Of a stretch of DNA of 64,000 nucleotides, positions 27,286-34,027 are shown piece after piece. The notes below the pieces were generated by a model. It did not search any database. It saw only the letters and a program-made list of their open reading frames with translations, and was not told the DNA's origin. The DNA comes from TPA_inf: Saccharomyces. Taxonomy: Eukaryota. The first letter of the stretch is position 1. The number at the start of each line of letters is the position of its first letter. The position numbers and the translations under genes were made by a program. Where the stretch lies: NCBI GenBank assembly GCA_000146045.2, contig BK006949.2, forward strand, positions 384,001-448,000. The letters run 5' to 3'.

Positions 27286-28253
27286 CGCAATCAAGAACAT
27301 GATTTCCTTCGGATAAGCAAGGGAGGGGTACGACTTCTGCCCGCAGGGGCTTATTGCCTGTCCTCTTCCTCGACCCCACGGTATTTCATTATATATAGAG
27401 TCACTGTAATAATAATTATCATGAAACCTGACAAGCAAAGGCGTCGGGCAATTACCAAAGGGCAGTTCGGTCGATTAAGTTTGCTTCACTACAGATTATT
27501 CACATATCATACGACAACTTTAAAATTGAACATTCAGGAGATTTTTGAATGCATTGATGGGCCCTTGCACCTTAACCGGGTCCCAATATTAGAGAAACGC
27601 CCCCTTAAACTGAACACAAGACAATACTACCTGGCCAATAGGGTACAATTTGCGGCCGTGTTAAACAGGCGTTTCAGCGTCTACCGCTCCTAATTTAAAG
27701 TCACTTGTTTCTTGGTAGCAGCAGCTTCCTGTTTTCTTCTTTTTGGCACTTGGTTATGTGATAATATCACCCGGATGAGAAACCTTTAAAATAAGCGTTT
27801 GGGAGGGGAAAAAGTGCAGTAACTGTCACAAATTTAACAAACAATTTGTTCACAAGTTTTGCCTTATCGTTCATCACATGTTATTTTTTTCAATCTAGCC
27901 AAAGTATCTAAAGAAGAATTTTCGTCTCTCTTGTGCCTTCTCATAATGTTCAATTAAGATGCAGACGGCTTTGACATGTCATTAATTTACTGAATTTCTG
28001 ACACTTCCCCACGATATTTATCATTTTTTACGTAATTAAGATTTAAACTCCGTACACCCGGCTTCCACAAATGTAGAATTTTCCGGAGCTTCGAACTTCT
28101 TGTTTCACGAATTAAAAGCATCCAACGTAGAACCACCCAACTCATCTTCCTAATGCTGAAGCTTCATCGGTAAACAAACCACAGTTAATAGCGAGAAAGT
28201 CGGCAAGTGACAAACGACGGTTATATTTAATTGGCCTTTGATATATATTGAAA

Positions 28254-31200
28254 ATGGTATGGTATGATCATAACACGCATTCTGAAAATGTTATCTGGGA
28301 GGTTTTCGATGGGTATGGAGTTTTCCTTGATTCTCACTTATTATCCCTTGTATTGTAATTGATCCTTCAGTAATATTTGCAGCCTTTCACAACTATCCTT
28401 TTTTTCATTGCTTATTACTATTGAACCTTTTTTAGGAGTTGCCTGCTTATGCAATATAATTTGCTGACAAGTAGTAAATTACCAGCACAATATTAAGATT
28501 AAAAAAGAAATTAGCCAAGAGCTTGATATATTATCTTATACACAAACCTTTCCGACCTACTTGATAAAGCCACATACCTCTACCTCTTCTATTAGAAATA
28601 GAAAAGTACAAAAATAGCAAAAGGAAATAATTTCTTTAAAATAACATTGTGTGAGGTTCCAACTATGGATTATTAATAGAGTAACGCAAACTTAAGGAAA
28701 GGAAGTGCTTTACAATTAAGTATTTATAAGAACGAATTTATCCCCCAAAAAAAAGCACCTATACTTAATAAAAGGAGGGGAATAGCTATCAATTGAGTGT
28801 TGTCTGCGTCTGTCTGCGTACAAGAGGATGAATTTTCTGACTCAGGCTATGTCAGAAACTTTTCAAGGGACAAATAACAGGATAAAACGTAATGTCAGGA
28901 CACAAAGTGTGCCATCAACTTCCTATAATAATGGCAAAGAATCATATGGACCAAATACTAACCAATTAAATGCCCTACTTTCTCAATTGGAACAGCAAAC
29001 AAGTGTTGATAGTACCAGCACGAGCTCAAACTTTTATTCCATTGCACAATATATTTTACAATCATACTTCAAGGTCAATGTAGATTCTCTAAACTCTCTG
29101 AAATTGGTGGATTTGATAGTGGACCAAACTTACCCTGATTCTTTGACGCTGCGAAAGCTGAATGAAGGAGCAACGGGACAACCATACGATTATTTCAATA
29201 CAGTTTCTCGTGATGCTGATATCTCCAAGTGTCCAATTTTTGCGTTGACCATATTTTTTGTTATACGATGGAGCCACCCAAACCCTCCAATTTCAATTGA
29301 GAATTTTACTACAGTACCGTTGCTAGATTCAAACTTTATTTCTCTAAATTCCAATCCTTTACTATATATTCAAAATCAAAACCCAAACAGCAATTCAAGT
29401 GTTAAAGTTTCAAGGTCACAAACGTTTGAACCTTCTAAAGAGTTGATCGATTTGGTATTTCCATGGCTGTCTTATTTGAAGCAGGATATGCTTCTTATTG
29501 ATAGGACGAATTACAAGCTTTATTCTCTCTGTGAACTATTTGAATTTATGGGCAGGGTTGCCATTCAGGATCTCCGATATCTGAGTCAACATCCCTTATT
29601 ACTACCCAATATCGTAACATTCATTTCAAAATTTATTCCTGAGTTATTCCAAAACGAAGAGTTTAAAGGAATCGGTTCAATTAAAAATTCAAACAATAAT
29701 GCCCTGAACAATGTTACAGGAATAGAAACCCAATTTTTAAATCCATCTACCGAGGAAGTGAGTCAAAAAGTTGATTCTTACTTTATGGAATTATCAAAAA
29801 AATTAACTACAGAAAATATCAGGTTAAGTCAAGAAATAACACAACTAAAAGCAGATATGAACTCCGTAGGCAATGTTTGTAACCAAATTTTGCTGTTGCA
29901 GAGACAATTGCTTTCAGGAAATCAGGCGATCGGATCAAAGTCCGAAAATATTGTGTCTTCCACAGGTGGGGGGATATTAATACTAGATAAAAATAGCATC
30001 AATTCGAACGTACTGAGTAATTTGGTTCAGTCGATAGATCCTAATCACTCCAAGCCCAACGGACAAGCCCAAACACATCAAAGGGGTCCGAAAGGACAAT
30101 CACATGCACAGGTTCAAAGTACTAATAGCCCTGCGCTAGCGCCAATTAACATGTTCCCGAGCTTAAGTAATTCTATACAGCCGATGCTTGGCACCTTGGC
30201 TCCGCAACCGCAAGATATAGTACAGAAGAGGAAGCTACCGTTACCAGGTTCAATAGCCTCTGCAGCAACAGGCAGTCCTTTTTCTCCATCACCCGTTGGT
30301 GAGTCTCCCTATAGCAAACGCTTTAAACTAGACGATAAACCAACTCCGTCTCAGACGGCTCTTGATTCCTTACTTACAAAATCCATTTCAAGCCCTAGAT
30401 TACCCCTTTCGACGTTGGCTAACACAGCTGTCACGGAATCTTTTCGCTCACCTCAGCAGTTTCAGCATTCTCCAGATTTTGTAGTTGGTGGTAGCTCAAG
30501 TTCAACAACGGAAAATAACTCTAAGAAGGTAAATGAAGATTCTCCATCATCTTCTTCAAAACTAGCTGAACGACCTCGTCTTCCAAACAACGACTCCACT
30601 ACTAGCATGCCTGAAAGTCCCACCGAGGTAGCTGGTGATGATGTTGATAGGGAGAAACCGCCAGAGTCAAGTAAGTCGGAGCCCAATGATAACAGCCCAG
30701 AATCGAAAGATCCTGAGAAAAATGGTAAAAACAGTAATCCGCTTGGTACGGATGCTGACAAACCAGTACCAATTTCTAATATTCATAATTCTACTGAGGC
30801 TGCAAATTCAAGTGGTACAGTGACAAAGACAGCTCCATCATTTCCGCAGAGTTCTTCTAAGTTTGAAATTATAAATAAAAAGGATACGAAGGCGGGGCCA
30901 AACGAGGCAATCAAATACAAGCTGTCCAGAGAAAATAAAACAATATGGGACCTATATGCGGAGTGGTATATTGGTCTGAACGGTAAATCTTCAATAAAAA
31001 AATTGATTGAAAATTATGGCTGGCGAAGGTGGAAGGTTAGCGAAGATTCACATTTTTTTCCTACTAGAAGAATTATTATGGATTATATTGAAACGGAATG
31101 TGATCGTGGCATAAAACTCGGCAGGTTTACTAATCCTCAACAACCGAGGGAGGATATACGGAAGATTTTAGTAGGGGACCTAGAAAAGTTCAGGATAAAT

Positions 31201-31362
31201 AACGGTCTGACTCTGAATTCTCTATCATTGTACTTTAGAAATTTAACGAAAAATAACAAGGAAATTTGTATTTTTGAAAACTTTAAAAATTGGAACGTTA
31301 GATCAATGACAGAAGAAGAGAAATTAAAGTATTGCAAAAGGCGACATAATACACCATCTTAA
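28254..31362 (+). CDS. GCR1: Glycolytic gene transcriptional activator Gcr1 (785 aa when spliced). Exon 1 is 28254-28261 (ATGGTATG). The intron is 28262-29012. Exon 2 is 29013-31362.
   Basis: Splicing gives [25 protein letters not shown]..., with the C-terminal DNA-binding region. The branch point TACTAAC is at 28956-28962, 50 nt before the TTGATAG 3' splice site. The 5' splice site is GTATGA, which is non-consensus. The six-frame track reports an 844-aa in-frame ORF from an intronic ATG at 28828. Confidence 0.85.
28262..29012 (+). other. GCR1 intron (751 nt). It contains an in-frame AUG at 28828.
   Basis: An 8-nt first exon, a GUAUGA 5' splice site, a UACUAAC branch point and a UAG 3' splice site. 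The frame of exon 2 is open through the 3' part of the intron back to the ATG at 28828. Confidence 0.8.
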
Positions 31363-31762: not shown

Positions 31763-34027
31763 ATGGCACATGAAAAGTTTAGTATACCTGAGAACTTCAC
31801 ATTAGCGCAGTCTTTGCAATTGCTTTACTCTGTTGTCAAAAATCAATATAAAAACCTAGCAGACCTAATAATCAATAGCAAAGGTAATAAGGACACAGTA
31901 ACGTATGGGAAAATCCACAAAAACTTAGACACTTTACTGGTATACGTCAATGAAGGTCTACGAAAAATTGAAAAGACTTATACCTTAAAGAAAGGGTTAG
32001 GAAATCTTGTAGTTGATCATCCTGAATTGAGGAGCATCATTGAGGATTTCCAAATTCTTGGCCAGGATATAAGGATCGCACGTCGTAAAGCAGAAACGCT
32101 TATGGCCGAAGGAAACGGTAGTCCCTCTTTGTCATCCTCCTCTTCCGTTTTGGGCCTTGGGACAGGAAATGGTTTGCGTTTTCCAAAACTTTGGAGAATG
32201 GGTTCCAAAAGAGATAAATTGAAAGAAGCTGACGAAAAGGAGGCTAAAATCAACAAACAGGCTGATAATATCAGACGTGCTAGGAAATTAGAAGAAGAGA
32301 AAAAGTTAGGAGCAAAACTTCAGTATGAGAGGGACTTAGAACTTCAAAGGGAAAAATTGATCGAGTTAAAGGTTAAAGAAAAGGTCGAATTTGAAGTGGC
32401 CCAAAAGTTGGAGGAGGAGAGAGTTAAGAGAGAGGAAGAAGAACGCAAACATAGAGAACAAGCGGAGAAAAAACGTATATCAACCCTGAAACATGAGAGG
32501 AAAACAAATTACAAATCAAGGGCTAGCCTCGACAACTTCTCTTCCAGTAGCAAATCTTCTGGAAAGATTGACAACTCCCTAATTAAAAGAAGATCACTTG
32601 ACGTTGTACGGACTTCAGGCGAAAGAGTACGAACGCCAGTAAGAAAATCAATGGAGGCAGCAGAAATAGGTATGGCTGCGCAGTTAGCCTGGTCTCAGTA
32701 TCAAAACGGGGCAAATCATTCAAAAGTGAGTAACAACGGATCGCATTCAAATGAACTTCAGATACGTTATAAGCCAACACCACCTTTGAAAAAAAGGTAT
32801 GACTACAAAAAGCCAACAGTTAATCGACCGATTATAAAATCACCTACTCTTAACAGGCAAAACAGCAAGTCTTCACGGAATATACCCACAAATAGCAAGC
32901 TGAAGGCTAGTAAATCCAATACTAACAAAGTTTCTCGTAGGAATGAGCAAAATTTGGAGCCTAGTTCACCAGTACTCGTTTCAGCGACAGCGGTACCTGC
33001 TGAATCCAAACCCATGCGTTCTAAAAGTGGTACACCCGATAAGGAAAGCTCTGCTAGTTCATCCCTCGATTCCAGAAAGGAGGATATATTAAAATCAGTG
33101 CAGGGAGTAGATCGAAACGCTTGTGAACAGATACTTAATGAAATTCTTGTTACGGATGAAAAAGTTTATTGGGAGGATATCGCAGGCTTACGGAATGCGA
33201 AGAATTCTTTGAAAGAAGCAGTGGTTTACCCATTTCTGCGGCCTGACTTATTCAAAGGGCTAAGAGAACCTGTTAGAGGTATGCTTTTGTTCGGCCCACC
33301 AGGTACAGGTAAGACAATGATTGCTAAGGCGGTTGCGACAGAGTCCAATTCCACATTTTTTAGTGTAAGTGCATCTTCTTTGCTATCGAAATACCTCGGT
33401 GAATCTGAGAAGCTGGTTAGAGCATTGTTTTACATGGCCAAAAAATTGTCACCCTCAATTATTTTCATAGATGAGATTGACTCTATGTTAACAGCTCGCT
33501 CTGATAATGAAAATGAGTCCTCGAGGAGAATTAAAACAGAACTTCTTATTCAGTGGTCCTCCCTATCTAGTGCTACTGCACAATCGGAAGACCGAAATAA
33601 TACGCTTGACAGCAGAGTACTTGTCTTAGGAGCAACGAATTTGCCATGGGCGATTGATGATGCAGCAAGAAGACGATTTTCACGGAAACTATACATTCCT
33701 TTACCAGATTATGAAACTAGACTATATCATTTGAAGAGATTAATGGCCAAGCAGAAAAATAGCCTGCAAGATTTAGACTATGAATTAATAACAGAAATGA
33801 CCGAGGGGTTTTCTGGTTCTGATCTTACGTCATTAGCCAAAGAAGCGGCAATGGAACCTATTAGAGATTTAGGAGATAAGTTGATGTTTGCGGATTTTGA
33901 TAAAATCAGAGGAATTGAAATAAAAGATTTTCAGAATGCTCTGTTGACAATAAAAAAGAGCGTGTCGTCAGAATCTCTACAAAAATATGAGGAGTGGTCT
34001 AGTAAATTCGGTAGTAATGGTTCCTGA
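31763..34027 (+). CDS. YTA6: AAA+ ATPase of the katanin/Sap1 group (754 aa).
   Basis: 754-aa ORF. The C-terminal AAA module has Walker A (GPPGTGKT) and Walker B (IIFIDEIDS). The N-terminal half is coiled-coil and K/E/R-rich. Length matches Yta6. Confidence 0.88.

What the first reader, a model, noticed from the sequence alone, without database searches (positions are those of the whole stretch)
28254..29013. The GCR1 intron has a non-consensus GUAUGA 5' splice site and an in-frame intronic AUG that gives an 844-aa retained-intron ORF
Shown by the sequence:
- The annotated-type product MVCTSTSS... requires an 8-nt first exon (ATGGTATG), followed by GTATGA rather than GTATGT.
- The intron is long (751 nt) and has a perfect TACTAAC branch point.
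- An ATG at 28828 inside the intron is in frame with exon 2 and has no intervening stop. An unspliced transcript could therefore make a Gcr1 isoform with a 62-aa alternative N-terminus ([14 protein letters not shown]...).

I recall that translation of unspliced GCR1 from an intronic start has been reported. The point therefore needs confirming rather than being new, but it is the clearest non-textbook gene structure in the window.
Basis: partly seen in the sequence, partly recalled or inferred. Interest (0 to 1): 0.55.

Follow-up and report, generated by a model that had tools for sequence, protein, structure and literature searches.

The report
Yeast GCR1 intron encoding two proteins
This is the well-studied yeast GCR1 gene, whose long intron carries its own start codon so that spliced and unspliced RNAs give two versions of a glycolysis regulator; the sequence facts are right but already published, and the annotated splice junction is the minor one.

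Summary
Every sequence statement in the finding is correct: ATG 28254, 8-nt annotated exon 1, GTATGA 28262, 751-nt intron, TACTAAC 28956-28962, TAG 3' site ending at 29012, and an in-frame ATG at 28828 opening an 844-aa ORF.

The locus is S. cerevisiae GCR1. The dual output is published. Gcr1U (844 aa) starts at the intronic AUG and Gcr1S comes from spliced RNA; both appear on immunoblots (Hossain 2016, as cited; Cha 2020; Hurtig 2020).

One correction matters. The GUAUGA/UAG junction behind MVCTSTSS is a very low-abundance isoform. The main splice uses GUAUGG at 28257, so exon 1 is just ATG, and CAG at 28993-28995. That removes 739 nt and gives a 789-aa MQTSVDST... protein (Kawashima 2014).

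My comparisons agree. In 10 other Saccharomycetaceae loci the intronic N-terminus is conserved as coding sequence. In the five distant species, ATG|GTATG, a branch point inside the same codons and an in-frame CAG are all kept.

One question is still open: whether Gcr1U mRNA is a full-length retained-intron RNA, which carries 8 upstream AUGs, or starts inside the intron.

Verdict: real, ordinary, already known.

The parts
28254..28256 (+). Exon-1 start codon. For the major spliced isoform this ATG is the whole coding part of exon 1.
   Evidence: Sequence. GAAAATGGTATGGTATGAT is invariant in 6 Saccharomyces species. ATG directly followed by GTATG is found in 5 more distant Saccharomycetaceae.
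28257..28262 (+). GTATGG, the 5' splice site of the major spliced isoform (Gcr1S).
   Evidence: Sequence. Kawashima 2014 and Cha 2020 name GUAUGG, 5 nt upstream of the annotated site, as the major 5'SS.
28262..28267 (+). GTATGA, the annotated 5' splice site. It is the site in the finding and gives the minor isoform.
   Evidence: Sequence. The annotated product is detected at very low levels. GUAUGA + CAG gives a PTC transcript degraded by NMD.
28268..28400 (+). 5'-proximal intron segment, unusually conserved for an intron. It contains a further alternative 5'SS, GTATGG, at 28313-28318.
   Evidence: Mean pairwise identity is 0.86 here against 0.75 in mid-intron. A 1-nt indel in the uvarum/eubayanus clade argues against coding. 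The alternative 5'SS 51 nt downstream of the annotated site is reported.
28783..28785 (+). In-frame TAG that closes the frame upstream of the intronic AUG.
   Evidence: All six Saccharomyces species have an in-frame stop upstream of the AUG.
28828..28995 (+). Intronic AUG (28828-28830) and the Gcr1U-specific N-terminal coding segment (USS domain, 56 codons including Met).
   Evidence: There are no gap columns in 6 species, against 70 gap columns in the rest of the intron. Variable columns by codon position are 8/8/21, and dN/dS is 0.15-0.53. The N-terminus is homologous in Kazachstania, Naumovozyma, Nakaseomyces, Torulaspora and Zygosaccharomyces proteins. The USS domain was characterised by Cha 2020.
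28889..28894 (+). GTAATG at the position of the alternative 5' splice site reported 627 nt downstream of the annotated one.
   Evidence: The position is computed from Kawashima 2014. Sequence.
28956..28962 (+). TACTAAC branch-point sequence (branch A at 28961), embedded in codons AAT ACT AAC (N-T-N) of the USS ORF.
   Evidence: The homologous codons carry TACTAAC, TTCTAAC or TGCTAAC in five distant species.
28970..28972 (+). [quoted passage not shown]
   Evidence: Kawashima 2014 places it 40 nt upstream of the annotated 3'SS. Sequence.
28993..28995 (+). CAG, the 3' splice site of the major isoform. It is the first AG after the branch point (34 nt).
   Evidence: The first CAG after the branch point sits on a codon boundary, and is in frame with a 3-nt exon 1, in all five distant species.
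29010..29012 (+). TAG, the annotated 3' splice site (51 nt from the branch A). It gives the minor isoform.
28996..31362 (+). Exon 2 of the major isoform. The annotated exon 2 starts at 29013. The stop codon is at 31360-31362.
   Evidence: ATG + 28996... gives 789 aa, MQTSVDST...
28828..31362 (+). 844-aa ORF of Gcr1U.
   Evidence: It is 99% identical to S. cerevisiae 844-aa entries carrying Pfam GCR1_C.

Best explanation
The window carries S. cerevisiae GCR1, a gene that makes two main proteins from one transcription unit.

**Spliced product.** RNA that includes the exon-1 AUG (28254) is spliced mainly from GUAUGG (28257) to CAG (28995), using the UACUAAC branch point at 28956-28962. This joins the bare AUG to codon CAA at 28996 and yields Gcr1S (789 aa, MQTSVDST...). 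The annotated GUAUGA (28262) to UAG (29012) splice is a rare in-frame alternative (785 aa, MVCTSTSS...). Most mixed combinations of sites shift the frame, and the ones that have been detected are removed by NMD.

**Unspliced product.** RNA that keeps the 3' part of the intron is translated from AUG 28828 into Gcr1U (844 aa). Its extra 55 residues (USS domain) are reported to block homodimerisation, so that Gcr1U works with Gcr2.

**What is shown here.** The sequence anatomy, the frame consequences of each junction, coding-type conservation of the intronic N-terminus, and family-wide conservation of ATG|GUAUG, the codon-embedded branch point and the in-frame CAG.

**What comes from the literature.** Junction abundances, NMD sensitivity, the two protein bands and USS function.

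**What is inferred.** The weak position-6 5' splice sites and the tandem arrangement keep splicing inefficient, so that both RNAs coexist.
For: - **Anatomy and frames:**. Of 12 combinations of 5' and 3' sites, only GUAUGG28257+CAG, GUAUGA28262+UAG and GUAUGG28313+UAG are in frame.
- **Identity of the gene:** (99% identity to S. cerevisiae 844-aa entries, PF12550 GCR1_C; 3-4 differences from named Gcr1p entries).
- **Conservation within Saccharomyces:**. The tandem 5' splice sites are invariant. The USS region has no indels and 0.91 identity, against 0.75 and 60 gap columns in mid-intron. Variation is biased to third codon positions (8/8/21; chi-square p = 0.010).
- **Selection and chance:**. 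dN/dS is 0.15-0.53, and the open frame was reached in 47 of 20,000 shuffles.
- **Distant species:**. The USS homologue, ATG|GTATG, the branch point in the same codons and the in-frame CAG are all present.
- **Literature:** (major product S = GUAUGG+CAG; annotated form at very low level; unspliced and PTC forms are NMD targets). (Gcr1U, Gcr1S and Gcr1A defined; both bands on immunoblots; USS function). (two proteins; intronic AUG conserved). (ribosome footprints in the intron).
Against: - A full-length unspliced RNA has 8 AUGs ahead of 28828. These include the exon-1 AUG in a good context (AAAATGG), which opens a 34-codon ORF. Unspliced GCR1 RNA is an NMD target. Scanning ribosomes should therefore rarely reach 28828 on that RNA.
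- Strains making only Gcr1U or only Gcr1S grow like wild type. This contradicts the earlier plasmid-based claim that both are needed, so the biological need for two isoforms is unsettled.
- No RNA or protein data could be analysed here.
- The primary paper (Hossain 2016) is not in the held library. It is cited only through others.
Confidence: 0.9

Rival explanations
1. Gcr1U is made mostly from a shorter mRNA whose transcription starts inside the annotated intron, downstream of the 5' splice sites, and not from a true retained-intron RNA. Such an RNA cannot be spliced, has AUG 28828 as its first or nearly first AUG, and would look like intron retention in RNA-seq coverage.
For: - There are 8 upstream AUGs on the full-length unspliced RNA, and 3-8 in the five distant species.
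- The unspliced RNA is NMD-sensitive.
- A TATA-like element with one mismatch lies about 100 nt upstream of 28828 in all six Saccharomyces species, at alignment columns 814-824 (my reading of the alignment).
- The 45 nt before the AUG are gap-free and 0.82 identical.
Against: - RT-PCR with an upstream forward primer detects a full-length unspliced species.
- Hossain 2016, as summarised, attributes Gcr1U to the exported intron-retained transcript.
- No 5'-end data were available to me.
- The TATA-like match is weak, and the nearby A-tract is not conserved.
Confidence: 0.3
2. The annotated GUAUGA to UAG intron (751 nt) is the principal splicing event, and the 785-aa MVCTSTSS protein is the principal spliced product. 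This is implicit in the finding.
For: It is the gene model used for several Saccharomyces annotations (785- and 784-aa entries). The junction is in frame.
Against: - Kawashima 2014 detected this product only at very low levels and names GUAUGG+CAG as the main product. Cha 2020 concurs.
- In three of the five distant species GTATG occurs only directly after the ATG, so only a 3-nt exon 1 is possible. In all five, the first CAG after the branch point restores the frame with a 3-nt exon 1.
- CAG 28995 is the first AG after the branch point.
Confidence: 0.04
3. The intronic ORF is a chance open frame with no protein product.
For: Introns occasionally contain open frames. A 49-codon stop-free run also occurs elsewhere in this intron.
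Against: - Shuffles reached the observed run in 47 of 20,000 (0.0024).
- The ATG is invariant, there are no indels, and substitutions are biased to the third codon position in 6 species.
- The N-terminus is homologous across the family.
- The protein has been seen on immunoblots.
Confidence: 0.01

Closest known systems
S. cerevisiae GCR1 (YPL075W) Gcr1U/Gcr1S system (Baker 1986; Tornow & Santangelo 1994; Kawashima 2014; Hossain 2016; Cha 2020; Hurtig 2020)
   Same: It is this locus. The splice sites, alternative sites, intron lengths (739 and 751 nt), product lengths (789, 785 and 844 aa) and N-terminal sequences (QTSVDST versus VCT) all match the published descriptions exactly.
   Different: Nothing substantive. 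The window's allele differs from named S. cerevisiae Gcr1p entries by 3-4 residues.
PTC7 retained-intron translation in S. cerevisiae
   Same: One yeast gene gives two functional proteins, one from spliced and one from unspliced RNA (mentioned).
   Different: From general knowledge, the PTC7 intron is read through in frame from the exon-1 AUG. In GCR1 the unspliced RNA is out of frame from the exon-1 AUG (34-codon ORF) and needs a separate intronic AUG.
SRC1 overlapping alternative 5' splice sites
   Same: Two staggered 5' splice sites lie a few nucleotides apart: 4 nt in SRC1 and 5 nt here (GUAUGGUAUGA).
   Different: In SRC1 the two 5' sites give two functional proteins with a single 3' site (my recollection; one search says only that SRC1 splice variants fold differently in the membrane). 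In GCR1 each 5' site is in frame only with its own 3' site, and the mixed pairs give PTC transcripts.
APE2 alternative start within the annotated intron
   Same: The intron is spliced inefficiently, and a second start codon inside it gives an alternative N-terminus, possibly through an intronic transcription start.
   Different: In APE2 the two N-termini are predicted to change localisation (mitochondrial versus cytoplasmic). In GCR1 the extra segment changes oligomerisation and Gcr2 dependence.

Membership tests
S. cerevisiae GCR1 locus | Protein essentially identical to Gcr1 and carrying the GCR1_C DNA-binding domain | tested here: met
   The 844-aa ORF is 99% identical over 100% of its length to S. 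cerevisiae entries with PF12550. The spliced form has 3-4 differences from named Gcr1p entries.
S. cerevisiae GCR1 locus | Conserved neighbourhood (GPI2 upstream, AAA-ATPase gene downstream) | tested here: met
   A 754-aa AAA-type ORF lies at 31763-34027 in the window. An AAA ATPase is downstream in all 10 orthologous loci. GPI2 is called upstream in 7 of them; it is absent from the three where the flank held does not reach it or a different gene lies upstream. GPI2 was not checked in the window itself.
Budding-yeast spliceosomal intron | 5' splice site matching the consensus GUAUGU | tested here: not met
   Both used sites deviate at position 6: GUAUGG at 28257 and GUAUGA at 28262. They are nevertheless used in vivo. 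The deviation is invariant in 6 species.
Budding-yeast spliceosomal intron | UACUAAC branch point | tested here: met
   A single perfect TACTAAC lies at 28956-28962. It is invariant in 6 species, and TACTAAC, TTCTAAC or TGCTAAC is kept at the same codons in 5 distant species.
Budding-yeast spliceosomal intron | YAG 3' splice site a short distance downstream of the branch point | tested here: met
   CAG is 34 nt and UAG 51 nt from the branch A.
Budding-yeast spliceosomal intron | Spliced junctions observed in RNA | not testable with these tools
   Literature only: RT-PCR, cloning and sequencing; lariat sequencing; RNA-seq.
Dual-product gene with intronic start codon (Gcr1U/Gcr1S) | AUG inside the intron, in frame with exon 2, with no intervening stop | tested here: met
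   ATG 28828, 844-aa ORF.
Dual-product gene with intronic start codon (Gcr1U/Gcr1S) | The intronic ORF evolves as coding sequence | tested here: met
   No indels, variable columns by codon position 8/8/21, and dN/dS of 0.15-0.53. The N-terminus is homologous across Saccharomycetaceae.
Dual-product gene with intronic start codon (Gcr1U/Gcr1S) | Both proteins detected in cells | not testable with these tools
   Literature: two bands for TAP- and Flag-tagged Gcr1, and single bands in isoform-specific strains.
Dual-product gene with intronic start codon (Gcr1U/Gcr1S) | The template for the long protein is a full-length intron-retained RNA | not testable with these tools
   Asserted in the literature, but an intronic transcription start is left open. 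The 8 upstream AUGs make this the weakest step.

The most novel reading that the evidence does not exclude
Most Gcr1U is made from a transcript that initiates inside the annotated intron, not by intron retention. GCR1 would then be a two-promoter gene in which the choice of start site, not splicing efficiency, sets the Gcr1U:Gcr1S ratio. The conserved 5' intron segment (28268-28400) and the region before 28828 would be promoter or regulatory DNA. The family-wide presence of several AUGs between the mini-exon and the internal AUG fits this reading.
Probability: 0.3. Interest if true: 0.35.

Novelty: already known. Interest (0 to 1): 0.1.

Why it matters
GCR1 is one of the few budding-yeast genes in which splicing choice yields two functional transcription-factor isoforms, and it controls glycolytic gene expression. 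All of that is published, so the finding adds no new biology.

The practical value of this check is a correction for anyone using the reference annotation. The annotated exon 1, intron and 785-aa protein describe a minor isoform. The conserved and abundant products are the 789-aa (ATG + CAG junction) and 844-aa proteins.

The unresolved point is whether the 844-aa protein's mRNA is a retained-intron RNA or starts within the intron. It is of specialist interest only.

Tried and rejected
- **RNA structure in the intron.** I looked for a stable or 'zipper' structure that might explain the conserved 5' segment. The 777-nt fold is no more stable than shuffles (z = +1.05; 17 of 20 shuffles fold at least as well). 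Inverted repeats are short (9-16 nt). The only pair linking the conserved 5' segment to the USS region (28341-28350 with 28864-28873) lies mostly in invariant columns (its CCCTTG/CAAGGG core is invariant), so covariation cannot be assessed. Not pursued.
- **A conserved upstream ORF.** I considered whether the conserved 5' segment encodes a uORF peptide, either the 34-codon ORF from AUG 28254 or the 32-codon ORF from 28264. A 1-nt indel in the uvarum/eubayanus clade breaks the frame. Rejected.
- **Primary papers.** Hossain 2016, Baker 1986, Holland 1987 and Tornow & Santangelo 1994 are not in the held library.
- **Published 5'-end mapping.** Literature searches found no published 5'-end mapping of GCR1 transcripts beyond Hurtig's remark.
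- **S. paradoxus.** It could not be added. Its protein falls in the same 90% cluster as S. cerevisiae and was not among the members read.

Full report
**1. Observation**

Reading 27900-29300 and listing ORFs, then scripting the coordinates, confirms every statement in the finding.
- ATG is at 28254-28256. ATGGTATG (28254-28261) is followed by GTATGA (28262-28267).
- A single perfect TACTAAC lies at 28956-28962, with branch A at 28961.
- TAG is at 29010-29012, so the annotated-type intron 28262-29012 is 751 nt.
- Joining 28261 to 29013 gives 785 aa, MVCTSTSS...
- ATG 28828 is in the exon-2 frame and opens an 844-aa ORF ending at 31362 ([14 protein letters not shown]...). Its first 62 codons replace MVC.
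- The nearest upstream in-frame stop is TAG at 28783.

- A second 5' splice-site hexamer, GTATGG, sits at 28257, overlapping the first. The sequence reads ATG-GTATG-GTATG-A.
- Two AGs lie nearer to the branch point than the annotated TAG: CAG at 28993-28995 (34 nt from the branch A) and AAG at 29001-29003.
- Eight AUGs lie between 28254 and 28828. The exon-1 AUG itself opens a 34-codon ORF on unspliced RNA.

**2. Is it more than chance?**

The stop-free run of 75 codons abutting exon 2, in an intron of 33% G+C, was reached in 47 of 20,000 shuffles.

I fetched the orthologous loci of S. mikatae, S. kudriavzevii, S. uvarum, S. eubayanus and one unnamed Saccharomyces assembly. I aligned them with window 27954-29250.

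| Region | Mean pairwise identity | Gap columns | Variable columns by codon position |
|---|---|---|---|
| Intronic ORF 28828-28995 | 0.91 | 0 | 8/8/21 (counted over 28828-29013) |
| Mid-intron 28401-28782 | 0.75 | 60 | not applicable |
| Exon 2 (29013-29250) | 0.90 | 0 | 10/3/38 |

- The ATG at 28828 is invariant, and an in-frame stop precedes it in every species.
- The codon-position bias in the intronic ORF gives a chi-square p of 0.010.
- dN/dS against S. cerevisiae is 0.15-0.53 for the intronic ORF and 0.03-0.07 for exon 2.
- dS is lower in the intronic ORF (0.19-0.38) than in exon 2 (0.51-0.61). This fits a stretch that serves both as coding sequence and as the 3' end of an intron.

**3. 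What it is**

The 844-aa ORF is 99% identical to S. cerevisiae entries carrying Pfam GCR1_C. The spliced form differs by 3-4 residues from named Gcr1p entries. The AAA-ATPase gene downstream matches the orthologous loci. This is GCR1.

From memory of SGD coordinates (chrXVI 412254-415362, not tested), the window would start at chrXVI:384001.

**4. What is published**

- **Kawashima et al. 2014 (PMC3983031)** mapped GCR1 splicing by RNA-seq, RT-PCR, cloning and sequencing.
  - The annotated GUAUGA+UAG product is 'detected at very low levels'.
  - The major product uses GUAUGG, 5 nt upstream of the annotated 5' site, and CAG, 17 nt before the annotated 3' site. In it, VCT is replaced by QTSVDST.
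  - Further alternative sites are a GUAUGG 51 nt downstream of the annotated 5' site, a site 627 nt downstream of it, and a non-canonical AUG 3' site 40 nt upstream of the annotated 3' site.
  - Mixed products and the unspliced RNA are NMD targets.
- **Mapping these onto the window.** The sites correspond to 28257, 28995, 28313, 28889 and 28970-28972. Computing all 12 junction combinations reproduces the paper's frame outcomes, including a PTC at codon 43 for GUAUGG+UAG. Only three combinations are in frame: 789 aa, 785 aa, and an 802-aa product from 28313+UAG.
- **Cha et al. 2020 (PMC7826247)** define three products.
  - Gcr1S is 789 aa, from the 739-nt intron.
  - Gcr1A is 785 aa and minor.
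  - Gcr1U is 844 aa, from the intronic AUG.
  - They note that the 844-aa ORF was the original 1986 gene model and that the spliced cDNA was described in 1994.
  - They show both protein bands in tagged wild type.
  - They show that the 55-residue USS segment blocks homodimerisation, so that Gcr1U acts with Gcr2.
  - They credit Hossain et al. 2016 with the discovery of translation from the intronic AUG.
- **Hurtig et al. [quoted passage not shown]
- **A 2025 preprint** notes ribosome footprints in the GCR1 intron.

**5. Independent comparative check of which splice is the 'real' one**

Gcr1 proteins of Kazachstania, Naumovozyma, Nakaseomyces, Torulaspora, Zygosaccharomyces and others begin with an MNF/MNL... 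segment. This includes a ...TN(Q/K)L..LL(S/K)Q(Q/E/D)... motif homologous to the S. cerevisiae intronic N-terminus.

I fetched five of these loci. Each shows the same three features.
- An ATG is immediately followed by GTATG(G/T/A), 137-705 nt upstream of the internal ATG. N. dairenensis even has the same ATGGTATGGTATGA.
- The branch point lies at the homologous codons: AAT/ATT/GAT ACT AAC gives TACTAAC, and T. globosa has TTCTAAC and Z. rouxii TGCTAAC.
- The first CAG after the branch point falls on a codon boundary, so a 3-nt exon 1 joins in frame.

The conserved design is therefore the 739-nt type of event, not the annotated 751-nt one.

**6. Mechanism**

*Shown by sequence.*
- Two staggered weak 5' sites, each in frame only with its own 3' site.
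- A perfect branch point embedded in the coding sequence of the long isoform.
- An intronic AUG in a good context (A at -3).

*From the literature.*
- Relative junction use.
- NMD of unproductive forms.
- The two proteins and their different partner requirements.

*Inferred.*
- The position-6 deviations, invariant across Saccharomyces, keep splicing inefficient enough for both RNAs to persist.

**7. The weak step**

On a full-length unspliced RNA a scanning ribosome meets 8 AUGs before 28828. That RNA is NMD-sensitive. The five distant species also have 3-8 such AUGs.

Hurtig et al. leave open that the abundant intron-containing RNA starts inside the intron. A one-mismatch TATA-like element lies about 100 nt upstream of 28828 in all six Saccharomyces species (my reading). 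No 5'-end data were available, so I give this rival 0.3.

**8. Leads that went nowhere**

- The intron is not unusually structured (z = +1.05), and its inverted repeats are short.
- The conserved 5' intron segment (28268-28400, identity 0.86) is not a conserved uORF, because a 1-nt indel breaks the frame. Its role is unexplained.

**9. Verdict**

It needs one correction: the annotated junction is the minor one. The matter is already known in detail, so interest is low.

Noticed in passing
window 28268-28400: The first ~130 nt of the intron are about as conserved across six Saccharomyces species (0.86 identity) as the promoter, and clearly more than mid-intron (0.75). A 1-nt indel excludes a conserved uORF, and no stable structure was found. 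The segment contains the alternative GTATGG at 28313. Its function is unexplained.
   Followed up: partly
window 28050-28125: The promoter region is highly conserved. It holds a Rap1-like ACACCC at 28054-28059, followed 3 nt later by a CT box (CTTCC, 28062-28066), and a second invariant CT box (CATCC, 28119-28123). This is the arrangement typical of Gcr1/Rap1-activated glycolytic promoters and suggests GCR1 autoregulation. It was not tested against binding data.
   Followed up: no
window 28828-28995: Synonymous divergence in the intronic N-terminal ORF (dS 0.19-0.38) is about half that of adjacent exon 2 (0.51-0.61). This fits overlapping constraints, since the stretch is coding sequence and also carries the branch point and 3' splice-site region.
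   Followed up: partly
window 28956-28962; L006 2665, L007 2626, L010 2680, and the homologous codons in L008 and L009: The branch-point heptamer is encoded by the same (N/I/D)-(T/S/A)-N codons of a conserved protein motif in all Saccharomycetaceae examined. One short sequence therefore serves both as splicing signal and as protein motif.
   Followed up: yes
Protein clusters (P0003, P0004, P0058-P0062, P0072): Public gene models for GCR1 orthologues in Saccharomyces species disagree, with lengths of 784, 785, 788, 789, 823, 843, 844, 847, 852 and 854 aa. Annotators variously chose the intronic ATG, the annotated-type splice or other junctions. None that I inspected (P0003, P0004, P0045, P0059, P0061, P0062) starts MQTSVDST, the major spliced form.
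   Followed up: partly
window 28313+29012 junction: The alternative 5' site GTATGG at 28313 combined with the annotated UAG 3' site would be in frame and give an 802-aa protein ([25 protein letters not shown]...). Cha 2020 states that only two spliced isoforms are in frame, so this combination may not occur or was not observed.
   Followed up: no
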